The position numbers and the translations under genes are program-made. From a virus (Duplodnaviria; Caudoviricetes), in the IMG/VR virus record IMGVR_UViG_3300030744_000156, positions 1-64,000 of that record: DNA of 64,000 nucleotides. One strand, written 5' to 3'. Positions 4,322-55,628 of the stretch are shown one piece after another; the stretch's first letter is position 1; each line of letters opens with the position of its first letter. The notes beneath the pieces were generated by a model, which worked only from the letters and a program-made list of their open reading frames with translations, searched no databases and had not been told where the DNA came from.

Positions 4322-6275
4322 GCTCGTCTCCTTCCTGGGGAGAGGACACGGGAAGGACCTCGGTCGGCGGGATCTTCTCGACAGGCGTGTTCGGCGGGCG
4401 GTTGCCGGGGAAGCCGTTGCCCTCGTGGCTACCCGTCCAGTAGCCGACCCGTGCACATCCGGGGCACTGTTCCTGGTGCAGCGCGAAGTAGAACCGCTTG
4501 CAGCCCGAGCACTGCCACACTGCGCGGAGGTCCGGGGGTGAGGTGTCAGCCTCACCAGAGACACCCCGGTTGATCACGTTCGGCGTGACGTGCTTCCAGT
4601 CCCGAAGTTGCTCCAGCGGGAACTCCGCCAGGTCGTCGTGGATGACGTCGCTGTCGTCCGGCCCTGCCTCGGTGGCGGCTATCGCCGGTTCACAGCGGGC
4701 GCAGGGGATCTCGGTGTGCTCGGTCTGGTCGCAGACGAACTCTCGGGTCGCTTCGCTCCGGGCGGCTGACGCCGCGTCCTCACTCAAGAGGTCAAGCAAC
4801 TCCAGTACGACGTCTCCCGCGTGAGATGCCGATCCGTACGCCAACTCCTCCACCCCGGCCTGATGCGCCTTGTCGAGCGCGGCCTCAAGCAGTTCGTGGA
4901 TGGGCTGATATTGCGCGTCCCAGCAGTCACCAGTGGCCTGATGGATGGGAACCACGACAGGACTGCACGAGCACGCCGGGACAACGCCGGGACGCAGCCC
5001 CATGAGCGCGAGCAGCGTCTCAGAGAGTTGGTCGGAGAACTGCGACGGCAGCAGCACGCCGTTCGCCTGCTTCGGCCAACCCATGCCACGGTGCTCGTCC
5101 GCCATGGCCTGCCACCTGTCGCGGGCCTCAGTGAGCTTTGAGATGGCGTTGGCGAGCACGACGGCCTGTCGCTCTGCTTCGGAGACCGAAGGGCGGAGAC
5201 CCTCATCCAAATTCTGTTCCAACTTGGGGTTCGCTTGGATTTGGGGCACCAGCGTGTCGGCCTCGTGCCGGTCCTTCCAGTCCTCCGCCCGCTTCTTACT
5301 GGGGCTGTACTGGACGATGCCGCATGCCGAACACGTGGACTCCCACCAGTCCCTCTCGGCAGCCCTGACGAACACCTTGTGCTGGACGGGGGTCGCTTCG
5401 CTTGTGGCGCTACGCGCTCCCCACGAGGCCAGCAGATCCAGCACGGCGCGAGCACCCCAGCTGGCGATGGTCTCCCGCTGGCCGTCGAACACCTCTCGCG
5501 GGAGCTTTCGCAGCGCCGGGTTCGAGATCACGTCACGGATTGCGCTGCGCGCGTCCTCGGGGATCCCGGCGAGGCCGGCGAGCAGTGCCTGCTGCTTCTT
5601 CAGCGCGGACAACGCCTCGTCCCACTCGGCCTTCACGCGTCGGTTTTCGGCTCGCAGCAAGCCGGCATTGGCCATCGACGCGGCCGTATCGTGCAGCCGC
5701 TCGTCCACCTCCTTGTTCGCGCGGTTGCGCCACGCCTCGCGCGACCTCCGCAGCTTCGACGCCCGCCGGGCCATGCCGCGCAGACGGGCGCGTGCCTCGT
5801 CCCGCTCGGAGGTGAGCGTCTTCTCGCGCGCCCACGACTCCTTGGCCGCCTTCTCCCACTCCTCCTTGTCGTTCCACAGCGCCTGCCAGTCGGCCACTGC
5901 CTTGAACAGCCAGTCCATCCCAGGAAACAACGCGGCGGCAACGTGCGCGGTCAGCTCGTCCGGGGTGTCGACCGTCAGGTAGTACCTCGTCGGCCCGCTG
6001 CCGTAGTCCTCGCCCGCCGTGTAGTCGTCGACGACCGACGCGACCTTCTCGCGCAGCTCTTCCATCGACACCTGGGGTGCATCGGGCTTGAGATTCGTTT
6101 CCTCGCCGCCGACTGGTGTGACCCGTGTGCGGGTGCGCGGCCAGAAGCCCTTGATGTACTCGCCGACGGGCTCGTCGACGAACTCGCTGAGCCCGTCCTC
6201 CTTGACCACCACACGCTTGGTCAGCTGGTAGGTGCCGGGTGCGAGCCTGGGCAGTTCGTTCGTCGGCTCGGTCAC
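4314..6275 (-). CDS. Large mosaic hypothetical phage protein (coiled-coil plus several CxxC modules)
   Basis: 653-aa ORF with operon-consistent codon pattern. Confidence 0.7.
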   Translation of the reverse strand: MTEPTNELPRLAPGTYQLTKRVVVKEDGLSEFVDEPVGEYIKGFWPRTRTRVTPVGGEETNLKPDAPQVSMEELREKVASVVDDYTAGEDYGSGPTRYYLTVDTPDELTAHVAAALFPGMDWLFKAVADWQALWNDKEEWEKAAKESWAREKTLTSERDEARARLRGMARRASKLRRSREAWRNRANKEVDERLHDTAASMANAGLLRAENRRVKAEWDEALSALKKQQALLAGLAGIPEDARSAIRDVISNPALRKLPREVFDGQRETIASWGARAVLDLLASWGARSATSEATPVQHKVFVRAAERDWWESTCSACGIVQYSPSKKRAEDWKDRHEADTLVPQIQANPKLEQNLDEGLRPSVSEAERQAVVLANAISKLTEARDRWQAMADEHRGMGWPKQANGVLLPSQFSDQLSETLLALMGLRPGVVPACSCSPVVVPIHQATGDCWDAQYQPIHELLEAALDKAHQAGVEELAYGSASHAGDVVLELLDLLSEDAASAARSEATREFVCDQTEHTEIPCARCEPAIAATEAGPDDSDVIHDDLAEFPLEQLRDWKHVTPNVINRGVSGEADTSPPDLRAVWQCSGCKRFYFALHQEQCPGCARVGYWTGSHEGNGFPGNRPPNTPVEKIPPTEVLPVSSPQEGDERG

Positions 6276-14510: not shown

Positions 14511-15137
14511 TCAGGCGGGGATGCGGGTGACGAGTGCGTCGACCTGGGCGCTGATCTCGATGAGCTGAGCGCGGGTGACGGCGGCGTCTGCGGCGACGCG
14601 GAGCCCGTCGATCTGCTGCTCCGCACGAGCGCACATGTCGTCGCTGGCCAACTCGTCGAGACGGTGGTGCAGGGCGTCGCGGTGGCGGCCGAGGTCGGTG
14701 CGGAGCGGAAAGGCCTCGCCCAGGCGGGCGTCCGCTGCGACGAGTGCTTCGGCGGTGATCGCTCCGGCAGCCTCGGTCCAGACCGCCCAGTACGTCTCGT
14801 CGGACGGGGTGCTGGAGTCGCCGGGCAGGGACTCGAACGCGCTGGTGTCGTCAAGGAATTCGACGGTGTGGCCGCGCTTCGCCCAGGCGGCGGTGAGGTG
14901 GTCGCGGATCAGGCTGTGGGCGGCGGTGTTGAGTTCGCGGCGCCAGGCGGTGACGAGGTCGCTGTCGAACATGTTGCCGAGGTCGTAGAGGGCGGGTTGG
15001 TCGGACTCGTTCCAGGCGTAGGCGGGGCAGTCGGTAACGACCAGCCGTCCGGTTTCGATGAGGATGGAACCGGACGTGTCGAGCAGCACAGTGGTGCCGT
15101 TGGCGCCAGCGGAGCGCTCCAGGATCGGTGCGGCCAT
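14511..15137 (-). CDS. Hypothetical protein, first gene of a leftward sub-operon
   Basis: ORF track; GGGGAG RBS. Confidence 0.6.
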   Translation of the reverse strand: MAAPILERSAGANGTTVLLDTSGSILIETGRLVVTDCPAYAWNESDQPALYDLGNMFDSDLVTAWRRELNTAAHSLIRDHLTAAWAKRGHTVEFLDDTSAFESLPGDSSTPSDETYWAVWTEAAGAITAEALVAADARLGEAFPLRTDLGRHRDALHHRLDELASDDMCARAEQQIDGLRVAADAAVTRAQLIEISAQVDALVTRIPA

Positions 15138-17680: not shown

Positions 17681-18404
17681 GGTCGGCCTCCTTGTCTTCG
17701 CTCGCGGGCGTGTGCTCGGCGACGAATCGTTTGATGCGCGCCTGATAGCACTCGCCTTCGCTGAAGTCCATGTGCTCCTGGCAGTAGCCGTGGTGGTCAA
17801 GCGAGCACGGGTCCGTCACGATCGCATCGTCGAGCAGATGCATGGCCTGGGCCAGGAGCCCCTGCAGGTGTTTGGTTTCCTGGTCGGCGCGCTGCCGTGC
17901 TTCGTGCGGCGTGAGGCCGTTGGGGCGTACGACGATCAGCGAGTACCGCTCCCTGGTCGGCTCGTGCACCGCGTCCCACGACAGGTAGTTGCCTGCACCC
18001 GTCTCCTGGAAGGCGGGCACGAACACAGCGAGCAGCTGCTTCGCCATGTCCTCGGCGGCCAGGGCTGCTGCGCCGCCGACGCTTGCGGTCCAACCGGTTT
18101 CGTCGCGGCTCAGTTGGGTGACGGTGGTCGGCGTCTCTGCGTCGTCTGCGTTGTCTGGTTCGGCAGGGTTCGCTTTGGGCCTCGCGACCGTGAGGATGTT
18201 TGCCGCCTGCCGCAGCACGGCAACCGCTTGACGCTCCGACTGTCCTTCCCGGGCAACGATCGTCGCCGCAGCATCTCCGCCGTTGCCGGGCACGAGCATC
18301 GCCCCGCCGAGCGCTGCGTCGAGGACGTTACCGACGGCACTGAACAGGTCGATGGACTGGCCGGACGGAATCCGCGCGATCGCGACTTCCTGTCGGGGTG
18401 CCAT
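17673..18404 (-). CDS. Hypothetical protein
   Basis: ATG coupled to the PNKP stop. Confidence 0.55.
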   Translation of the reverse strand: MAPRQEVAIARIPSGQSIDLFSAVGNVLDAALGGAMLVPGNGGDAAATIVAREGQSERQAVAVLRQAANILTVARPKANPAEPDNADDAETPTTVTQLSRDETGWTASVGGAAALAAEDMAKQLLAVFVPAFQETGAGNYLSWDAVHEPTRERYSLIVVRPNGLTPHEARQRADQETKHLQGLLAQAMHLLDDAIVTDPCSLDHHGYCQEHMDFSEGECYQARIKRFVAEHTPASEDKEADRG

Positions 18405-19324
18405 CAGAACGCTCCTTCTGCTACCTGGAGCACCGTGAGGCCGATCGACCTCCAGGCGCGGCAAACCCTGTCGCGGTCGTCGAAGACACACGTGACGCGG
18501 AAGCGGTCGCGAATGTGCGCGTCGAACAGTTCGAGCTTGATCAGGTCATCGCGGCGAAGATCCCCAGCGGCACGCATGAACAGGCCGGCGCGCGGGATGT
18601 CGACGTGCTCGTCGAGCCACGTCTCAGTCACGGCACGGTAGGTCTCGTCGCGGCCGGAACAGAACACGACCTCATGCCCGGTGAGGAACATCGACCGCAC
18701 CGCGGTGATCACCGCGTCGTTGGGCTGGTCAAGGTGGTACCTGCTGGCGTCGAACGGGTCCCGGATGCTGTGGTGCAGGGCCACCGTCCCGTCGATGTCC
18801 ACCATCACAGCCGCAGGCAGCGACAGGTTCGGCGTGTACGGGCGCCCAACAGCCCCTTCGCCCGGCGCGGGAACGGGAAGCGGGAGAACGCGGCCCGCGA
18901 GGAACTTCCGGTGCAGCGTCCGCACGACGTCCTCGCCGACCCGCGCCTGGCCGTTCCGCTCTGCGTCGCGTCGGATGCACTCGTCGAGCGGCACATCGGT
19001 GAGGTCGCGCACCGCGAAACCGGCGCCGCAACGCCAGGCCAGCTCGGCGAGGTTCCGAAGGTTGCGCTGCCGCAGGTTGGTGTCATCCACGATCACGTCC
19101 ACTCCGACGCGGAGGAGACGTTCGATGGCGGCGTGCTGGGCGATAGTGACCTGGTCTTCGCAGACCGGGTCACCGAAGCGCGGCGTGCCGTGCAGCATCT
19201 GCCTGTAGCTGTCACGGTTGCAACGCACCAGCGTTCCGGGTGCCGCAGCGTCGAGCATGATGAGTGCTTCGGTGGTCTTGCCGCATCCGGGCAGGCCACG
19301 GAAGGCGGTGAGGGTGGCGGTCAC
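18404..19324 (-). CDS. Polynucleotide kinase-phosphatase (T4 PNK-like)
   Basis: Walker A GLPGCGKTT with RD motif (CNRD), VDDTN; C-terminal HAD DIDGT, SGR, FDDR. Confidence 0.92.
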   Translation of the reverse strand: MTATLTAFRGLPGCGKTTEALIMLDAAAPGTLVRCNRDSYRQMLHGTPRFGDPVCEDQVTIAQHAAIERLLRVGVDVIVDDTNLRQRNLRNLAELAWRCGAGFAVRDLTDVPLDECIRRDAERNGQARVGEDVVRTLHRKFLAGRVLPLPVPAPGEGAVGRPYTPNLSLPAAVMVDIDGTVALHHSIRDPFDASRYHLDQPNDAVITAVRSMFLTGHEVVFCSGRDETYRAVTETWLDEHVDIPRAGLFMRAAGDLRRDDLIKLELFDAHIRDRFRVTCVFDDRDRVCRAWRSIGLTVLQVAEGAF

Positions 19325-20496
19325 GCGGTGTCCTCCGTCCGGTTCCAGAACGGCTTCTCGTGGGCGGGGTAGATCGCAGCCCACGCCTGGGCGGTGACGG
19401 GCTTGCCGTCGAGGGCGGCGAAGACGAGGCCGCGGTGCGGGTGCTGCATCAGCTCGGCGGCCGAGGTCTTGCGCGGCAGCGGTGCCAGCCGCTCGGCGGT
19501 GGCGTGCACCTCGGCGAGAAGGGCAGCGGCCGCCTCGCGCTGGGCCTCGATCGTGCGGTCGATCCAGGCGAGGAACTCCTCGGGAGCGGTCGCGCGCAGC
19601 GTGTCGACCCAGTCGGCGCCGGCGTCCACGATGGCCTGCGCGTCGACGGGGTCCAGGCGAAGGTTCTGCGCGATGCGCTTGATCGACATGTCCGGATGGG
19701 CAGCGAGCGTCGCGTGCACTGCAGCGCGGTCCCACAGTCGGCGCGCGGTGAAGCCGGTGACGACGCGATGCATGGCCACGTAGTCGGCCTGTTTGATCTT
19801 TACTCGCTGGTCGGAGGTGAGCAGGTGCACGACGAGCCCTTCGGCGTTCGGCCGCGGCTCGGCGGCCAGCGCATCAGCCAGCGAGGCGTGCGGGAAGGAC
19901 TCCACCACAGGGCCGGGCCAGTCGACGCCGAGGAAGCTCGCCCCCGCGGACAAGGTCTGTCCGGTCTTGATGTCGACGAGCCCGAGCAGGATCAGGTCGT
20001 CCATGGCGCCGTAGTCGAGAACGATCCGGTTCTCCGGGTACACGATCTCGAACAGCACCGTCACGCCCGGCGGCGGCGTCCAGTCGCCGTACTGGCGCCG
20101 GAACAGCTCGGTGGCGTGCTGCGCCTGCTCACTTGCGAACGAACCACGCGTCGCGATAGCCCAGCCAGCGGGTGTCGGGTAGAGGATCCCGAGGCTTCCG
20201 TCAGCCTTGTCCGTGACCACTACCGGCTCGCTGAAGTCGAGCGTGGCCGCCTCGGTCTCGTTGTGGTTGAAGAACTTCGGGAACGGCCTGGCGATGATCT
20301 CGCTGGTGTTCGAGTCGGCGATCAGCCCGCGGCACTGCCGGGTGACCGGGGTCCAGACGCGCTCGTAGGCGGCCTTCTCGGTGTAGTTGAAGATCGTGAA
20401 CGGGTAGGCGGGGTGTTGCTGTGCACGCACGTAGCCCTCGTCGATCGCGGCTTCGAGGTCGTGTACGTCGAACAGGTCGTCAAGGCGGGTGGTCAT
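19321..20496 (-). CDS. RNA ligase, T4 Rnl1 family
   Basis: NYTEKAAY, CRGLI, RPFPKFFN, motif I KADGSLG, ATRGSF, LFEI, EGLVV, VKIK. Confidence 0.9.
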   Translation of the reverse strand: MTTRLDDLFDVHDLEAAIDEGYVRAQQHPAYPFTIFNYTEKAAYERVWTPVTRQCRGLIADSNTSEIIARPFPKFFNHNETEAATLDFSEPVVVTDKADGSLGILYPTPAGWAIATRGSFASEQAQHATELFRRQYGDWTPPPGVTVLFEIVYPENRIVLDYGAMDDLILLGLVDIKTGQTLSAGASFLGVDWPGPVVESFPHASLADALAAEPRPNAEGLVVHLLTSDQRVKIKQADYVAMHRVVTGFTARRLWDRAAVHATLAAHPDMSIKRIAQNLRLDPVDAQAIVDAGADWVDTLRATAPEEFLAWIDRTIEAQREAAAALLAEVHATAERLAPLPRKTSAAELMQHPHRGLVFAALDGKPVTAQAWAAIYPAHEKPFWNRTEDTA

Positions 20497-21146
20497 GCGG
20501 TAGCTCCAGCGGACTCGGTGTTGTGGTTGGGGCAGTAGTCGCCGTTCTCGTCGCAGCGCCAGCCCTGGGTGCGCAGGAACGCGCGGGCGGTCTCGAACCG
20601 GGCCTCCTGCGGGTCGGCCTCGCGAACGAGGTAGTCGCCGCGTTCCTCGTGGCCGCACACGTCGCAGAACACGGCGACCTGACACGGGAACCGGGCCAAG
20701 CTGTACGGCGGAACAGAAGCGGCGCCGTGGCCGAGTAGCCAGCCGAACGTCGGGATGCCGAGACGGCTCGACTTCGCCGCCGTGTCCTTCGCACCCCGGC
20801 TGCCGGGTGCGAGGAACGCGTGCGTCTCGGTGATCGGTTCGCCCAGGAACATCTCGGCGTTGCGGTACGGGCCAGCCGCCGGGCAGTACTCCTTGCCGTC
20901 GCGGCCGATCCGGCGGTGGCGTGGTCTGCACTTCGGCCGGCATGGGCCGTGCCAGTCGGCTGGATTCGGCTCGTCGACGCCGCCGAGGTCACGCCAGATC
21001 GCCGCCCCGTCCTGGTCGCCGTCCGGGCAGTCACCGTGCACGAGCACCGCATCCGGATAGCGGCAGCGCACGACCGTGAAGACCTCGCGCACCGTGGCAA
21101 AGTCGGTGTAGCCGCGGGCGAACGTGGCGAGGATGCGGGGCGTCAT
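20493..21146 (-). CDS. SLOG-superfamily (DUF2493/YspA-like) protein
   Basis: VLVHGDCPDGDQ...AAGPYRNAEM...AFLAPGSRGAKD. Confidence 0.7.
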   Translation of the reverse strand: MTPRILATFARGYTDFATVREVFTVVRCRYPDAVLVHGDCPDGDQDGAAIWRDLGGVDEPNPADWHGPCRPKCRPRHRRIGRDGKEYCPAAGPYRNAEMFLGEPITETHAFLAPGSRGAKDTAAKSSRLGIPTFGWLLGHGAASVPPYSLARFPCQVAVFCDVCGHEERGDYLVREADPQEARFETARAFLRTQGWRCDENGDYCPNHNTESAGATA

Positions 21147-33005: not shown

Positions 33006-33035
33006 CGTCCGGTTTGACAAAATCAAAACCGGACG
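33006..33035. promoter_or_regulatory. Palindromic operator copy (contains TTGACA)
   Basis: CGTCCGGTTT-N10-AAACCGGACG upstream of xis. Confidence 0.7.
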
Positions 33036-33414: not shown

Positions 33415-33466
33415 CGTCCGATCTAGCAACCCGCAGAATCGGACGGTTATCGGATGGTTATCGGAT
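33415..33466. promoter_or_regulatory. Immunity-region operator variant plus tandem half-sites
   Basis: CGTCCGATCT-N11-GAATCGGACG (33415-33445), with GGTTATCGGAT twice at 33445-33466. Confidence 0.6.
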
Positions 33467-36322: not shown

Positions 36323-36365
36323 GTCGGGACGACAGGATTTGAACCTGCGACCCCTTGACCCCCAG
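36323..36365 (-). pseudogene. 3' half of tRNA-Pro(GGG) (att core), not a full tRNA
   Basis: Reverse complement CTGGGGGTCAAGGGGTCGCAGGTTCAAATCCTGTCGTCCCGAC = anticodon loop, T arm and acceptor 3' strand; no 5' half upstream. Confidence 0.85.
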
Positions 36366-42252: not shown

Positions 42253-42526
42253 CCAGATCGTCAAGCAGCCTGACGGCAAGTACGCGATCTTCTCCAGCAT
42301 CACCGACACCATCGTGTTCTGGGACGCCACCTACGACGAGATCGTGCAGTTCTTCGTCGACCGGGCCATCGAGGACACCAAACGTTCAGTGCAGAAGGTC
42401 CTCGACCACGTCGCCGCTGACGAACCGCGCAAGGCCTACTACCAGTTCACGATGACCTGGGAGGAAGCCCTTAGGGATGACCGTGACGGCGGCGGCGAAG
42501 TGTGGAAGGAGTACAGCCGTGGATGA
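42245..42526 (+). CDS. Hypothetical protein
   Basis: ORF track, coupled. Confidence 0.6.
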   Translation: MGNQIVKQPDGKYAIFSSITDTIVFWDATYDEIVQFFVDRAIEDTKRSVQKVLDHVAADEPRKAYYQFTMTWEEALRDDRDGGGEVWKEYSRG

Positions 42527-42971
42527 CATCCCCATACGACCCGAGGCGGTCGCTGCCGCACGCTGGTGGGTCGACACCATCACCGCCCCGCCCAAGAACG
42601 ACGAGTACGGCGATGCAGCGCTGAACGCAGGCATGGCGCGCTCACGCCTCCAGCCTGCGCCCACCACCTGGACACCCGAGCAGGTCGAGGCGTTCCGCGT
42701 TGAGCTCGAACGACGCATCGATGCCCACTGCGCCGAGACGTCGTGGCGCCCGGACGAGCCGAACTACGGCTCCGGGGTGCGGGTGATGATCTGCGACTAC
42801 GGCCCAGACCCCGTGCTGAAGGACGCCGCCGAGGCAGTCGGCCTGCGGTTGCAGAACCGCGACACGCCAGCGAAGACGTTCGTGTGGGTGAACCCAGGCG
42901 AGGTCAAGGCACAGCTGGGCTACTCGGCACCGCGCGAGGTCGTGTGGAGCGAGGAGTACGGCCGTGGCTGA
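42519..42971 (+). CDS. Hypothetical protein
   Basis: GTG after AAGGAG RBS. Confidence 0.6.
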   Translation: MDDIPIRPEAVAAARWWVDTITAPPKNDEYGDAALNAGMARSRLQPAPTTWTPEQVEAFRVELERRIDAHCAETSWRPDEPNYGSGVRVMICDYGPDPVLKDAAEAVGLRLQNRDTPAKTFVWVNPGEVKAQLGYSAPREVVWSEEYGRG

Positions 42972-43422: not shown

Positions 43423-43685
43423 CCGAAACCGGTCGCCTCGTTGGCGGTCCGCACGACGGCACCACGTTCCCCGTCAATGACAGGTTCTGGCACGCCCGCC
43501 CCGACCAGCTCCCTGAGCCTGCGCAACGCGTCTACGTCACCGAGGACGGACACCGCTCGTTCTGGTTCACGGCCAGCGTGACCGGTGCCGGCGTGTTCGG
43601 CCCGCCGCCACTGAGTAGGTACGACCTGGACCCGGACGACAGCGGCTGGCTCTACCAGTACGTGGGCGAGGAGCAGCATGGATGA
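43419..43685 (+). CDS. Hypothetical protein
   Basis: ATG after GGAGGAG RBS; LVGGPHDG motif. Confidence 0.55.
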   Translation: MTETGRLVGGPHDGTTFPVNDRFWHARPDQLPEPAQRVYVTEDGHRSFWFTASVTGAGVFGPPPLSRYDLDPDDSGWLYQYVGEEQHG

Positions 43686-44028
43686 CCCGAGCCAGCACGA
43701 CGAGCTGGTCCGCCAGGTCAAGGAGCGATACCGCGCCGCTGGCATCACGCCTGCCCTCCGCACTGACTGGGCCGAGGAGGACCTCGTCTACTGGCTGGAG
43801 GACGGCATCGAAGGGCAGATCCAACGTCTCGACGGCGACCGCGCCCTGGTCTGGTGGGAGGACGACGACCTCTCCTGGATCGACACCGCCGAGCTCCAGA
43901 AGCCCGATGACCTCCAGCACAGACCACCGACAAGACCGACGCGATCCGGCAGCCCACCCCATGCACCGATCTGGCCAGCCTGGACCCCAGGCAACCTCCC
44001 CGAAGGGACCGCCCGTGACCGCTCCTGA
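43678..44028 (+). CDS. Hypothetical protein
   Basis: ORF track, coupled. Confidence 0.5.
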   Translation: MDDPSQHDELVRQVKERYRAAGITPALRTDWAEEDLVYWLEDGIEGQIQRLDGDRALVWWEDDDLSWIDTAELQKPDDLQHRPPTRPTRSGSPPHAPIWPAWTPGNLPEGTARDRS

Positions 44029-44332
44029 CCTGGTGCGGCAGCCGCCCGCAGTCGCCAACGCCCCGCAGATCGGCATGTGCGGCGCCGGCTACTGCGACCG
44101 ACCCGCCGTGGCCTACGTGTCCCGCACGGTCGGCGTCTCCCGCCGGGTCACGATCATCATCGGCCCGCGCGGCGAGTTCCTGGGCGAACAGAACCAGCCA
44201 GAGCTGCGCTGCTTCGACTGCCTACACGACGAGGTCGACACCGCACTCGCCTCCACCGGCATCCCGGTGCACGCCGCAGAACGCCCGCCGGCTGAAGCGC
44301 GGGCTGATCGTCCGGTTTCACATACGCCTTGA
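44015..44332 (+). CDS. Hypothetical protein with CxxxxC/CxxC
   Basis: GTG start in ORF 43682..44332. Confidence 0.5.
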   Translation: MTAPDLVRQPPAVANAPQIGMCGAGYCDRPAVAYVSRTVGVSRRVTIIIGPRGEFLGEQNQPELRCFDCLHDEVDTALASTGIPVHAAERPPAEARADRPVSHTP

Positions 44333-44347
44333 CAGGACGCTTACGCT
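44309..44347 (+). promoter_or_regulatory. Operator copy plus putative -10 (TACGCT) for the Y RNA/Ro operon
   Basis: CGTCCGGTTT-N11-TGACAGGACG at 44309-44339; TACGCT at 44342-44347. Confidence 0.6.
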
Positions 44348-44356
44348 GAGCGAGCA

Positions 44357-44426
44357 CTCCCGGTGCGAAGTCCAACGGCTACTTCCTTGGGTGAAACGAC
44401 GCCGTCGGACGACCTGATCTCGGGAG
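44357..44426 (+). ncRNA. Short Y RNA (Ro-binding stem, no tRNA-like domain)
   Basis: CTCCCG-GTGCGAAGTC ... GACCTGATCT-CGGGAG terminal stem; internal CTACTTCC; same architecture as the adjacent Y RNA. Confidence 0.65.
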
Positions 44427-44436
44427 CCCACAACTC

Positions 44437-44578
44437 CACACGTGCCCGGTGCGCAGGCGAGGCCTACTTCCAACTGCTAATTGGGTGGTCCGGGTTCGAA
44501 TCCCGGCGGCCTTTCGGGGCTGTGGTGTAACGGCAGCACGCTATGTCGGCTTCACCGTCTTGATCTCGGGCCCGTGTG
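44437..44578 (+). ncRNA. yrlA: YrlA-like Y RNA with circularly permuted tRNA-like domain
   Basis: Outer stem CACACG-GCCCG/CGGGC-CGTGTG; GTGCG/TTGATCT Ro site; T arm CCGGG-TTCGAAT-CCCGG; UUCG-capped acceptor-like stem; D arm GTG-TAACGGCAG-CAC; directly upstream of Ro60. Confidence 0.8.
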
Positions 44579-44614
44579 GGGCTGTAGCTCCCCTTCCGCT
44601 GAAGGGTTGAGCCC

Positions 44615-46228
44615 TTGTCGAAGTTCAACACCACCAAGACCCGCCCGGCCGTGTCGAGCCCGGTCACCAGCGAGTCCACCCCATCCGCCCGCACCTACGA
44701 GGGCGGCGCCGGCTACGCCCGCGACACGAAGTCCGAGCTGTTCCTGCTCGCCGTCACTCAGTTCGCCGAGGCAACGTTCTACGAGTCCGGCCAGGACCGC
44801 GACAGCCGCTACGCCCAGCTCATCCACGCCGCTGCACTCGCTGACCCGGAGTGGACGGCACGCCTGCTCAGCTGGCTCCGCAACGACGCCAACATGCGCA
44901 CCGCATCCCTCGTCGGCGCCGCCGAGTACGTCAAGGCCCGCCTCGCCGCAGGAGCGGACACGGGCGTCTCCAACCGGGCCGTTATCGACTCCGTGCTGCA
45001 GCGCGCCGACGAGCCCGCCGAACTCCTCGCCTACTGGACCAGCCGCCACGGCCGCAGCATCCCGAAGCCCATCAAGCGTGGTGTCGCCGACGCCGCTCGT
45101 CGGCTCTACGACGAGCGATCCCTGATCAAGTGGGACTCCGACGCCCGCGGCTACCGCTTCGGCGACGTGCTCAACCTCGTCCACCCGGCCCCGCGCGCCG
45201 ACTGGCAGGCCGACCTGTTCACCTACGCCCTCGACCGCCGCTACGACCGGCCGACGAGCGACTGGCCCACCCTGCCGATCCTGCAGCGCCGCCAGGGCCT
45301 GATGGCGACCGAGCTCGACGACCGCCGCGCGCTCTTCGAGGACCCTGCGCGCGCCGCCATCTGCCTCCGCGAGGCGGGGATGACGTGGGAATCGGTCGCC
45401 GGCTGGCTGCAGGCGCCGATGACAAAGGAGGTGTGGGAGGCGCTCGCACCGTCGATGGGTTACATGGCGCTGCTGCGCAACCTGCGCAACTTCGACGAGG
45501 CCGGCGTCTCCGACGAGGTCGCTGCCATCGTCGCGGCGAAGCTCTCCGACCCCGGCCAGGTCGCACGCTCCCGCCAGCTGCCGATGCGGTTCCTCTCCGC
45601 CTACCGCGCCGCGCCCTCCCTGCGATGGGGCCACGCCCTGGATCAGGCGCTCACCCACTCGCTGGCCAACATCCCGCAGTTGTCTGGCCGCACCCTTGTG
45701 CTCGTCGACACCTCGAGCTCCATGGACGCCGGGTTCTCGAAGGACGGCACCCTGATGCGCTGGGATGCCGCTGCGGTGTTCGGTATCGCTCTCGGTGCCC
45801 GATGCGAGTACGCCGACGTCGTGTCGTTCTCCTCCAACCAGCGCTACTGGAACGACCCGGCCGGTGCGAACACCAAGCAGTTCAAGCTCCAGGCCGGCGA
45901 GTCCCTGCTCCGCTCGGTCGACCGATGGAAGAACGGCGGCTACTTCCTCGGCGGCGGCACCGACACCGTCGGCGCCATCCAGCGCCACCTGCGCCCTGGC
46001 TTCCACGACCGGCTCGTCATCGTCACCGACGAGCAGGCGGAACGCGGCGACGTCGGCCGCACCGTGCCCGCAGACCTGCCGCTGTACACGTGGAACCTCG
46101 CTGGCTACCGCCACGGCCACAGCGCCTCAGTCCACAGCAACCGCCACACCTTCGGCGGCCTCACCGATCAGGCCTTCCGGATGATTCCCCTGCTCGAAGC
46201 CGGAAAGAACGCCGCCTGGCCGTTCTGA
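44615..46228 (+). CDS. rsr: Ro60/TROVE-domain RNA-binding protein with C-terminal vWA domain
   Basis: TYEGGAGY..D.KSELFLLAV, MALLRNLRNF, RQLPMRFLSAY, VLVDTSSSM (MIDAS), GGGTD, IVTDEQ, WNLAGY, FGGLTD. Confidence 0.95.
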   Translation: MSKFNTTKTRPAVSSPVTSESTPSARTYEGGAGYARDTKSELFLLAVTQFAEATFYESGQDRDSRYAQLIHAAALADPEWTARLLSWLRNDANMRTASLVGAAEYVKARLAAGADTGVSNRAVIDSVLQRADEPAELLAYWTSRHGRSIPKPIKRGVADAARRLYDERSLIKWDSDARGYRFGDVLNLVHPAPRADWQADLFTYALDRRYDRPTSDWPTLPILQRRQGLMATELDDRRALFEDPARAAICLREAGMTWESVAGWLQAPMTKEVWEALAPSMGYMALLRNLRNFDEAGVSDEVAAIVAAKLSDPGQVARSRQLPMRFLSAYRAAPSLRWGHALDQALTHSLANIPQLSGRTLVLVDTSSSMDAGFSKDGTLMRWDAAAVFGIALGARCEYADVVSFSSNQRYWNDPAGANTKQFKLQAGESLLRSVDRWKNGGYFLGGGTDTVGAIQRHLRPGFHDRLVIVTDEQAERGDVGRTVPADLPLYTWNLAGYRHGHSASVHSNRHTFGGLTDQAFRMIPLLEAGKNAAWPF

Positions 46229-46245
46229 CCCGCTAGCCTCGCCCT

Positions 46246-46318
46246 CGGCCGACCCATGCCCCCCGAGGTCGACCGTCCCACTGCGGCCCCGAATCAGCTG
46301 CCCCCGGTTCGGGGCCGC
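46246..46318 (+). ncRNA. 6C-RNA-like double hairpin
   Basis: Hairpin 1 CGGCCGACC-CATGCCCCCCGA-GGTCGACCG; hairpin 2 GCGGCCCCGAA-TCAGCTGCCCCCGG-TTCGGGGCCGC; -10 TAGCCT at 46234-46239. Confidence 0.6.
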
Positions 46319-46349
46319 CGTCCGGTCTGCCTCTCGCTCAAACCGGACG
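46319..46349. promoter_or_regulatory. Palindromic operator copy
   Basis: CGTCCGGTCT-N11-AAACCGGACG. Confidence 0.72.
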
Positions 46350-46410
46350 CTCTCACCTACAGTCACCACAGTGGACGCATCCGCCGAGCGTCCCGCGTGG
46401 AGGTGCAGCG

Positions 46411-55506: not shown

Positions 55507-55628
55507 TGGTGACGAGGACGGGATTCGAACCCGCGTCTCCTACTAGCCCCCTGCCTGACTGGCCGTCCGGACGTGCCAGCAGGCAGTACGTGGGGTGTTC
55601 AGGATTCTGGCCGCTGAACTACCTCGCC
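55507..55628 (-). ncRNA. tRNA-like RNA (122 nt) with a long hairpin replacing the anticodon loop
   Basis: Acceptor GGCGAGG/CCTCGTC+ACCA; U8 A9; D arm GTTC-AGCGGCCA-GAAT; variable AGAC; T arm GCGGG-TTCGAAT-CCCGT; 65-nt central region instead of ~18; -10 TAGCCT at 55641-55636. Confidence 0.75.

What the first reader, a model, noticed from the sequence alone, without database searches (positions are those of the whole stretch)
44309..46349. Phage-encoded Ro60 RNP locus: two tandem Y RNAs, Ro60 and a 6C-like RNA, bracketed by two operators
Seen: operator and -10, a 70-nt Y-like RNA, a 142-nt YrlA-like RNA with permuted T/acceptor/D arms, full-length Ro60-vWA, a second -10, a C-loop double hairpin, and another operator. 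Both Y-like RNAs share GTGCG...TGATCTCGGG and CTACTTCC. Known: bacterial Ro60/Y RNA tethers PNPase for structured RNA decay and is linked to RNA repair; Ro/Y pairs have been reported in a few actinophages. Inference: with the PNKP, Rnl1, HAD and tRNA mimic elsewhere in the genome, this phage carries an unusually complete RNA surveillance, repair and decoy system against host RNase defences.
Basis: partly seen in the sequence, partly recalled or inferred. Interest (0 to 1): 0.85.

Follow-up and report, generated by a model that had tools for sequence, protein, structure and literature searches.

The report
Phage Ro60 gene with two Y RNAs
A soil actinomycete phage carries the ring-shaped RNA-binding protein Ro60 preceded by two small partner RNAs, one a tRNA look-alike; this is a genuine but already known kind of phage module, and the claimed extra "6C-like" RNA is not supported.

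Summary
The core observation holds. A full-length Ro60 gene (TROVE + vWA, 44615-46228) follows two tandem Y RNAs. These are a ~75-nt minimal unit (44355-44432) and a ~142-nt YrlA-type unit (44437-44578) with V, T, closed-acceptor and D arms. Covariance models built without the window find both (E 1e-10 and 2e-23), and the helices covary strongly across relatives.

The same cassette lies before Ro60 in 13 viral contigs, in Gordonia phages and in about 60 actinomycete genomes. It is therefore a new member of a known kind. Chen et al. 2014 listed 22 phages. Hu et al. 2025 showed that Thermus phage phiLo Ro60 binds two upstream Y-like RNAs and host PNPase. This scan has also noted many Ro60/Y loci on other DNA.

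The "operators" are real. They belong to a genome-wide palindrome family of at least 7 sites and are not specific to this locus.

The "6C-like RNA" is not supported: there is no Rfam match, and C-rich loops occur in only 8 of 72 related loci. It is more likely a terminator.

PNKP and Rnl1 exist 25 kb away, but any functional link to Ro60 is inference.

New details: the V arm copies an anticodon arm (loop CU-NN-UAA), and a conserved hairpin hides the Ro60 ribosome-binding site.

The parts
44309..44339 (.). Palindrome copy 1. The left arm CGTCCGGTTT is intact. The right arm is degenerate and contains TTGACA and the stop codon of the upstream small gene. This is the most degenerate member of a genome-wide family.
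   Evidence: 3 mismatches to the consensus; 0.00 matches expected by chance.
44342..44347 (+). -10-like hexamer TACGCT, 7-8 nt before the first Y unit. The relative L014 has TAGCTT at the same distance before the same GAGCGAGCACTCCCGG.
   Evidence: Promoter activity was not tested. The E. coli-type scan found nothing.
44355..44432 (+). Small Y RNA (YrlB-like, minimal unit). It has a closing helix CUCCCGG/CUCGGGAG, an internal loop with GGUGCGA, an inner stem GUCC-ACGGC/GCCGU-CGGAC, and a loop that begins CUACUUCC.
   Evidence: R2 hit at 57.9 bits, E 1e-10. Core covariation: 94% of cells paired and 15 of 18 pairs with compensatory change. MFE fold.
44437..44578 (+). YrlA-type Y RNA. Closing Ro-type helix 44437-44456 with 44558-44578. 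Stem 2: 44460-44464 with 44548-44552. CUAC at 44464. V (anticodon-like) arm 44469-44485, loop CUGCUAA. T arm 44490-44506. Closed acceptor-like hairpin 44507-44522 with a UUCG loop. D arm 44525-44539.
   Evidence: R1 hit at 97.4 bits, E 2e-23. On A1, 95% of cells pair and 25 of 36 pairs show compensatory change, against 38-49% in slid controls. Partial Rfam YrlA match to model positions 27-81. V arm.
44587..44612 (+). Leader hairpin. Its 3' arm is the G-rich Shine-Dalgarno-like GAAGGG (44601-44606), 8 nt before the TTG start. The hairpin occludes the ribosome-binding site. In many Streptomyces-type relatives a U-run follows it, giving a terminator-like element.
   Evidence: A C-rich/G-rich hairpin is seen at this place in most of the ~70 distinct related leaders, with different sequences.
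44615..46228 (+). Ro60 (Rsr) ortholog: TROVE ring plus vWA domain with an intact MIDAS motif.
46239..46321 (+). Two hairpins after the Ro60 stop codon (46239-46272, and 46280-46321 with a 14-bp GC-rich stem). They are most likely the terminator of the Ro60 unit. The loops are C-rich.
   Evidence: No 6C match. Not conserved as C-loop hairpins. Most relatives have a single strong hairpin here.
46319..46349 (.). Palindrome copy 2 (1 mismatch). It is followed by TACAGT (46358-46363) and the next gene (ATG 46411). It most likely belongs to that gene's promoter.

Best explanation
This is a phage-borne Ro60/Y-RNA module of the actinomycete type. One transcription unit starts at or near 44355, below a palindromic regulator site and a -10-like TACGCT. 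It gives two Y RNAs and then the Ro60 mRNA.

Both RNAs share a core 'handle': a closing helix with the GGUGCG(A/C)AGG strand, a second stem, and a UACUUC junction. This handle is the expected Ro60-binding platform. The first RNA carries almost nothing else. The second displays a circularly permuted tRNA body (anticodon-like V arm, T arm, closed acceptor hairpin, D arm).

Shown here: the gene, the two RNAs, their conserved covarying folds, and their fixed position before Ro60 in phages, proviruses and about 60 actinomycete genomes.

Inferred by analogy with Deinococcus, Salmonella and Mycobacterium Rsr, and with the Thermus phage phiLo Ro60-Yrl1/Yrl2 complex: Ro60 binds the handle, and the free module tethers a host partner. 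The best candidate is PNPase, or else a tRNA-elbow-binding protein. During infection or lysogeny the particle would then re-aim or damp host 3'-5' RNA decay.

A conserved hairpin that hides the Ro60 ribosome-binding site probably keeps the protein low relative to the RNAs. The phage-wide palindrome probably ties expression to a phage regulator.
For: Ro60 identity.

Y RNAs: leave-one-out models R1 and R2 hit the window at E 2e-23 and 1e-10. Covariation is far above the shuffled and slid controls.

Same-strand cassette: present in 13 viral contigs and 2 Gordonia phages. It ends about 35-40 nt before Ro60 in about 60 of 63 actinomycete genome loci.

Published features met (PMC4201824): YUAY at the start of the V region, T, AS and D arms, a same-strand position within 4 kb of Ro60, and YrlA plus YrlB upstream of rsr on one precursor in M. 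smegmatis.

Closest solved structure: 9KOP/9L5Y, which is phiLo phiRo60. It binds two upstream Y-like RNAs and host PNPase and attenuates PNPase (PMC12135203).

Leader hairpin. Palindrome family.
Against: Rfam's YrlA model stays far below its gathering score (19.9 against 69 bits), and it finds none of the related actinophage units.

The published GNCGAAN0-1G motif is not met exactly in either unit. They carry GGUGCGAAG and GGUGCGCAGG.

PNPase tethering is shown only in distant systems. For the YrlA class the effector is stated to be unknown (10.1101/312249).

The promoter is inferred from a hexamer only.
Confidence: 0.8

Rival explanations
1. Integrated anti-defence system. Ro60/Y RNAs, PNKP, the Rnl1 ligase and the anticodon-less tRNA mimic would act together to sense, decoy and repair RNA cut by host RNase toxins.
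For: PNKP and Rnl1 are confirmed in the same genome. A HAD_PNKP domain is present in 3 of 5 other Ro60-bearing phage records, within about 6-7 kb of Ro60 in VanLee and Rabbitrun. The V arm copies an anticodon arm. In Salmonella, rsr and the Y RNAs lie in the rtcBA RNA-repair operon (PMC4201824).
Against: In this genome the repair genes are 25 kb away on the other strand. The count rests on only five records. The Rnl1 search in relatives was uninformative because its control failed. There is no experimental link.
Confidence: 0.2
2. The stretch 46234-46321 is a separate 6C-like small RNA gene. Its C-rich loops would pair with G-rich mRNA sites.
For: Two adjacent hairpins have C-rich loops and a favourable fold (z = -2.8). 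TAGCCT lies just upstream. Loops reading CCCCC also occur in the hairpin after Ro60 in VanLee and in a Streptomyces provirus clade.
Against: No 6C match appears at E<=10 in searches of 2251 nt or 201 nt. Only 8 of 72 related loci have a C4 loop there, mostly from one close clade. The position directly after a stop codon and before the next promoter fits a terminator.
Confidence: 0.1
3. The 142-nt unit is a genuine tRNA-Ser(GCU) gene, as ARAGORN calls it and as the equivalent unit is annotated in Gordonia phage VanLee (tRNA-Arg).
For: ARAGORN calls a tRNA at 44442-44515. The Rfam tRNA model scores 24.5 bits. The anticodon-like arm and T arm are canonical.
Against: The score is below the tRNA gathering score of 29. 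There is no D arm in the normal place. The tRNA-type acceptor pairing is not conserved in relatives (36.8% paired, the same as slid controls). The YrlA-type helices covary. The acceptor-like stem is closed by a loop, so there is no CCA end.
Confidence: 0.02
4. The palindromes act as RNA hairpins (terminators or processing signals) and not as DNA operators.
For: Each copy would form a 10-bp stem in RNA. Copy 2 directly follows the Ro60 terminator-like hairpin.
Against: The arms are conserved in sequence, not merely in pairing, while the 11-nt centre is free. That pattern is typical of a dimeric DNA-binding protein. The sites lie before genes on both strands, and TANNNT hexamers follow several of them.
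Confidence: 0.2

Closest known systems
Thermus phage phiLo phiRo60 with Yrl1 and Yrl2 (Hu et al. 2025, NAR, PMC12135203; PDB 9KOP, 9L5Y)
   Same: A phage-encoded Ro60 with two Y-like RNA genes directly upstream on the same strand. It is the best PDB match of the window's protein. The RNAs have a 5'-3' closing stem and an internal loop with a CGAA-type motif.
   Different: The sequence relation is distant (E 2e-22 for a single sequence). The host is a thermophile. In the passages read, the phiLo RNAs are described as hairpin RNAs and the term 'tRNA-like' does not occur. The window's second RNA carries a full permuted tRNA body.
Bacterial Rsr with YrlA/YrlB, especially Mycobacterium smegmatis (Chen et al. 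2014, PMC4201824; Rfam RF02553; structure 6CU1, 10.1101/312249)
   Same: Two Y RNAs lie upstream of rsr on one strand, one tRNA-like (~147 nt) and one short. The order of arms is V, T, closed acceptor-like stem, D. YUAY opens the V region. The paper also lists 22 phages.
   Different: The order of units is short then long. The acceptor-like stem is a 6-bp stem with a UUCG loop, not the 7-bp RNase P substrate of M. smegmatis. The 5' motif is GGUGCG(A/C)AGG and does not fit GNCGAAN0-1G exactly. The V arm has the dimensions and loop pattern of an anticodon arm. The Rfam model does not reach threshold.
Deinococcus radiodurans Rsr-Yrn1-PNPase (RYPER)
   Same: A Ro60 ortholog plus an adjacent Y RNA that tethers an exoribonuclease. 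It is the model for the proposed mechanism.
   Different: Yrn1 has a different arm order and is held to have evolved independently (PMC4201824). No PNPase link was tested here.
6C RNA (Rfam RF01066; actinobacterial sRNA with two C-rich loops)
   Same: Two neighbouring hairpins with C-rich loops in a high-GC actinomycete context.
   Different: There is no covariance-model match, no conservation across related loci, and the element sits where a terminator is expected.

Membership tests
Ro60 / Rsr (TROVE + vWA) | TROVE domain detectable by profile | tested here: met
   Pfam PF05731, 4.3e-16. PHROG 850, 1e-60 over residues 8-532.
Ro60 / Rsr (TROVE + vWA) | Homology to solved Ro60/Rsr rings over both domains | tested here: met
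   Profile of 17 relatives: 9KOP/9L5Y 1.4e-48, human Ro60 9NEN 3e-14, Xenopus 1YVP 2e-13, Deinococcus Rsr 2NVO 3e-12.
Ro60 / Rsr (TROVE + vWA) | vWA MIDAS motif (DxSxS ... T ... D) | tested here: met
   D365, S367, S369, T449 and D472 are invariant in 17 sequences. The alignment to 9L5Y covers this region.
Ro60 / Rsr (TROVE + vWA) | Closed ring fold that binds Y RNA on its outer surface | not tested
   No structure prediction was run, and RNA binding cannot be tested with these tools.
YrlA-type Y RNA (Chen et al. 2014; Rfam RF02553) | Encoded within 4 kb of Ro60 on the same strand | tested here: met
   The unit ends 36 nt before the Ro60 start.
YrlA-type Y RNA (Chen et al. 2014; Rfam RF02553) | T arm, closed acceptor-like stem-loop and D arm in that order, enclosed by a stem that joins the 5' and 3' ends | tested here: met
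   Consensus fold and pair counts on 19 sequences. Rfam YrlA positions 27-81 align to exactly these arms.
YrlA-type Y RNA (Chen et al. 2014; Rfam RF02553) | YUAY at the start of the V region | tested here: met
   CUAC at 44464, and at 44379 in the small unit.
YrlA-type Y RNA (Chen et al. 2014; Rfam RF02553) | GNCGAAN0-1G near the 5' end | tested here: not met
   No exact match. The units carry GGUGCGAAG and GGUGCGCAGG, which are near variants of this motif and of the metazoan GGUCCGA.
YrlA-type Y RNA (Chen et al. 2014; Rfam RF02553) | Rfam gathering score (69 bits) | tested here: not met
   19.9 bits, E 0.57, partial match. None of 15 related phage loci reaches it either. The model evidently does not cover this actinomycete clade.
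YrlA-type Y RNA (Chen et al. 2014; Rfam RF02553) | Bound by the cognate Ro60; tRNA-type modifications | not testable with these tools
   Needs co-immunoprecipitation and modification mapping.
6C RNA (RF01066) | Match to the family covariance model | tested here: not met
   No 6C hit at E<=10 in the 2251-nt or the 201-nt search.
6C RNA (RF01066) | Two conserved hairpins with C-rich loops, kept in relatives | tested here: not met
   The hairpins are present in the window. A C4 loop is found in only 8 of 72 related downstream regions.
tRNA (RF00005) | Cloverleaf with an open acceptor stem, and a score above gathering | tested here: not met
   24.5 bits against 29. The acceptor-type pairing is not conserved.

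The most novel reading that the evidence does not exclude
In this actinomycete clade the YrlA 'variable' arm would be a maintained anticodon-arm mimic. It has a 5-bp stem, a 7-nt loop C32-U33-N-N-U36-A37-A38, a 4-5-nt variable loop, and then the T arm. Positions 34-35 vary freely (GCU, GUU, GAU, CCU, GGU, UUU, CUU, UCU ...), while U36-A37-A38 are kept. From my own knowledge, U36-A37-A38 is the signature of ANN-decoding tRNAs and of t6A37 formation.

The RNA would then be a nearly whole, circularly permuted tRNA held on Ro60. It could serve as bait or sensor for enzymes that read anticodon loops (modification enzymes or anticodon nucleases), possibly in concert with the phage's PNKP/Rnl1. It would also be direct support for the proposed origin of YrlA from a tRNA dimer.
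Probability: 0.15. Interest if true: 0.7.

Novelty: new member of a known kind. Interest (0 to 1): 0.35.

Why it matters
It adds a temperate phage of a mycelial actinomycete to the phages known to carry their own Ro60 particle.

The two-RNA cassette turns out to be a very conserved, mobile unit in Pseudonocardiales, Streptomyces and Micromonosporaceae genomes. The public YrlA model misses it, and tRNA finders and annotators mislabel it. For example, 'tRNA-Arg' in phage VanLee and ARAGORN's 'tRNA-Ser' here are YrlA-type units.

Practical value: better annotation of actinophage genomes, and a ready set of natural variants for asking what the tRNA-like module binds. These variants comprise the anticodon-like arm, the shared handle, and the hairpin over the Ro60 ribosome-binding site.

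It does not open a new category. A phage Ro60 with two upstream Y-like RNAs has already been studied biochemically.

Tried and rejected
Rfam at gathering thresholds found nothing in the window and only real tRNAs in 15 related loci.

The E. coli-type promoter and terminator scan found nothing. It does not cover actinomycete signals, so this is uninformative.

Megablast against isolated phages found no near relative.

The MAFFT alignment of the small units was wrong in the interior, and RNAalifold saw only the outer helix. I therefore used a hand-structured 5-sequence model and re-aligned with it. That alignment leans towards the model.

The Rnl1 family search in five related phage records found nothing, but the control also failed. 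It says nothing either way.

The 216-aa ORF 43682-44332 has no family hit and no likeness to VanLee's RHH protein. Only its last ~85 codons (from ATG 44076, with CxxxxC ... CxxC) look like coding sequence.

The reading as a true tRNA was rejected.

The reading of the downstream hairpins as 6C was rejected.

No complex or structure prediction was run. Ro60 identity did not need one, and RNA partners cannot be submitted.
Full report
**What the window is.** The window is the first 64 kb of an 84,441-bp IMG/VR virus record with direct terminal repeats and 68% G+C. No isolated phage is close at the DNA level.

**The protein.** ORF 44615-46228 (+) has a TTG start and encodes 537 aa.
- Its N-terminus, MSKFN..., aligns with the start of all relatives.
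- It matches Pfam TROVE and PHROG 850 'RNA-binding protein' over its full length (1e-60).
- A profile of 17 relatives finds phiRo60 of Thermus phage phiLo (9KOP/9L5Y, 1.4e-48), human and Xenopus Ro60, and Deinococcus Rsr.
- The MIDAS residues of the vWA domain are invariant.

This is a full-length Ro60 ortholog.

**Distribution of the protein.**
- 91 phage records hold a relative; the best isolated phage is 46% identical.
- The closest copies (62-69% identical) lie in genomes of Amycolatopsis, Saccharothrix, Actinosynnema, Lentzea, Streptomyces and Micromonosporaceae, and in provirus contigs.

**The two RNAs.** Two units lie upstream of Ro60. Both contain CCCGGTGCG, CTACTTCC and TGATCTCGGG.

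The same layout appears in 13 viral contigs and in Gordonia phages VanLee and Rabbitrun, which have 2-4 units each. All units are on the Ro60 strand, and the last unit ends about 35-40 nt before the start codon.

*Long unit.*
- I aligned 19 long units. RNAalifold gave an outer helix, a second stem, a T arm, a closed acceptor-like hairpin and a D arm.
- 95% of cells pair, and 25 of 36 pairs show changes on both sides. None of 500 shuffles reached these values. Slid controls paired at 38-49%.
- Model R1, built from the 18 other sequences only, finds window 44439-44578 end to end at 97.4 bits, E 2e-23. Nothing else in the 84-kb genome scores.

*Short unit.*
- Model R2, built from five relatives with a hand-set structure, finds window 44355-44432 at 57.9 bits, E 1e-10.
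- R2 also hits most long units, which shows that all units share one core 'handle'.
- On that model-fitted alignment, 94% of cells pair and 15 of 18 pairs have compensatory changes.
- MFE folds of 16 short units mostly show the same architecture.

*Wider survey.* R1 finds a full-length unit just before Ro60 in about 60 of 63 actinomycete genome loci, usually with further units upstream.

**Comparison with the literature.** Chen et al. 2014 (PMC4201824) report the following:
- YrlA-like RNAs lie within 4 kb of Ro60, on the same strand, in 254 bacteria and 22 phages.
- The arm order is V, T, acceptor-like, D.
- A conserved YUAY opens the V region.
- M. smegmatis has a ~147-nt YrlA and a short YrlB upstream of rsr, on one precursor.

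The window meets these features. Two published criteria are not met:
- The exact GNCGAAN0-1G motif is absent. The units carry GGUGCGAAG and GGUGCGCAGG.
- Rfam's YrlA model gives only a partial 19.9-bit match against a gathering score of 69 bits. It finds none of the related actinophage units.

Hu et al. 2025 (PMC12135203) found two Y-like RNA genes upstream of phage phiLo Ro60. They showed binding to Ro60 and to host PNPase, and attenuation of PNPase activity. That protein is the window protein's best PDB match. The locus is therefore a new member of a known, experimentally studied kind. This scan has also noted Ro60/Y loci on much other DNA.

**Not a tRNA.** ARAGORN calls tRNA-Ser(GCU) at 44442-44515, and VanLee's equivalent unit is annotated tRNA-Arg.
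- The tRNA-type acceptor pairing is not conserved: 36.8% of cells pair, the same as slid controls.
- The Rfam tRNA score is below threshold.

**The V arm.** The calls above arise because the V arm looks like an anticodon arm. In the window it has a 5-bp stem, the loop CUGCUAA, a 4-nt variable loop, and then the T arm.
- About 15 of 25 phage or provirus units share this form.
- So do 55 of 71 units in bacterial loci.
- The loop consensus is C-U-N-N-U-A-A. Counts out of 55 are C 47, U 48, U36 39, A37 41 and A38 50. The two middle positions vary.

The YrlA papers say that YrlA lacks an anticodon loop and treat V as a variable arm. I found no description of this feature. It fits the tRNA-dimer origin model cited. 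It may be functional, but shared ancestry has not been excluded.

**Leader hairpin.** Between the long RNA and the start codon, a hairpin (44587-44612) pairs a C-rich arm with GAAGGG, the likely Shine-Dalgarno sequence.
- A hairpin of this kind, with differing sequences, is present in most of the ~70 distinct related leaders.
- In many relatives a U-run follows it.
- It probably limits Ro60 translation or read-through relative to the RNAs. This is inferred.

**The 'operators'.** CGTCCGGTTT-N11-AAACCGGACG occurs at 15046, 15189, 46319, 55735 and 59011, and in degenerate form at 44309. That is six sites within 3 mismatches, against 0.00 expected.
- A 30-nt variant lies at 33006.
- A related palindrome lies at 33415.
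- By a rough gene call, most sites lie in gaps between genes, and TANNNT hexamers follow several.
- The arms are conserved in sequence while the centre is free, which fits a dimeric DNA-binding regulator.

The element is real but genome-wide. The copy at 46319 precedes TACAGT and the next gene (46411), so it most likely belongs to that unit.

**The '6C-like RNA'.** Hairpins 46239-46272 and 46280-46321 fold well (z = -2.8) and have C-rich loops.
- No 6C match appears even at E<=10 on 201 nt.
- Relatives mostly show a single strong hairpin after the stop codon.
- C4 loops occur in 8 of 72 loci, mainly one Streptomyces clade.
- VanLee also has a CCCCC loop, in a canonical terminator.

I read these hairpins as a terminator. 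The recurrent C5 loops remain a minor unexplained point.

**Wider gene set.**
- PNKP (AAA_33 kinase plus HAD_PNKP phosphatase, 5e-47) lies at 18404-19735 (-).
- An Rnl1-type ligase (PF09511, 7e-15) lies at 19321-20943 (-).
- A HAD_PNKP domain is present in 3 of 5 other Ro60-bearing phage records.
- The Rnl1 search in relatives was uninformative.

A joint system with Ro60 is possible but not shown.

**Verdict.**
- The mechanism is inferred by analogy, and no expression data could be obtained.

Noticed in passing
window 42477-42971 (+): A 164-aa protein with a BTG/Tob-family domain (PF07742, 1.5e-13; phrog_8937, 2e-16) lies 1.6 kb upstream of the Ro locus on the same strand. In eukaryotes, BTG domains bind the CAF1 deadenylase. 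That is an unusual domain to find in a phage near an RNA-decay module.
   Followed up: no
window 18404-21146 (-): An RNA-repair cassette. PNKP (AAA_33 + HAD_PNKP) at 18404-19735, an Rnl1-type RNA ligase at 19321-20943, and a weak SLOG-like hit (YAcAr, 0.0011, below cut-off) at 20493-21146.
   Followed up: partly
window 55518-55534 (-) and 36332-36348 (-): Isolated perfect T-arm-like hairpins (GCGGGUUCGAAUCCCGU at 55518) were picked up weakly by the YrlA-type model. The first lies in the anticodon-less tRNA-like gene noted by other readers.
   Followed up: no
window 15046, 15189, 33006, 33415, 44309, 46319, 55735, 59011: A genome-wide family of 30-31-bp palindromes (arms CGTCCGGTTT / AAACCGGACG). 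By a rough gene call most lie in gaps between genes, and several are followed by TANNNT. This looks like a candidate regulon of one phage DNA-binding protein.
   Followed up: partly
L002 (Gordonia phage VanLee) 2340-2874; L003 (Rabbitrun) 2300-2860: Both Gordonia phages carry about four tandem Y-type units before Ro60. VanLee's annotated 'tRNA-Arg(tct)' (L002 2638-2709) is the V-T part of a YrlA-type unit and is most likely a mis-annotation.
   Followed up: partly
L008 2697-2803, L010 2708-2824, L016 2677-2790, L010 2846-2955, L011 1644-1752: Further unit types share the same handle. Some have a T arm placed directly after UACUUC, followed by other hairpins. Others have a V arm plus T arm but no D arm. 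The handle seems to display interchangeable modules.
   Followed up: no
L009, L013, L015, about 2250-2690: In a Streptomyces provirus clade the Y/Ro cassette sits directly downstream of what looks, by eye, like the C-terminal part of a tyrosine recombinase (integrase) gene. That would place it at the edge of the element, like a cargo gene. No family search was run.
   Followed up: no
window 46280-46321; L002 4670-4700; L009/L012/L013/L015 about 4650-4690: Terminator-like hairpins after Ro60 carry a CCCCC run in the loop in three separate lineages: the window, VanLee and a Streptomyces clade. This is unexplained. It is not a general feature (8 of 72 loci).
   Followed up: partly
window 44076-44332 (+): The gene just upstream is probably a small (~85-aa) protein with CxxxxC ... 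CxxC (zinc-ribbon-like). Its TGA stop lies inside the TTGACA of palindrome copy 1. The longer 216-aa ORF call looks wrong in its 5' part.
   Followed up: no
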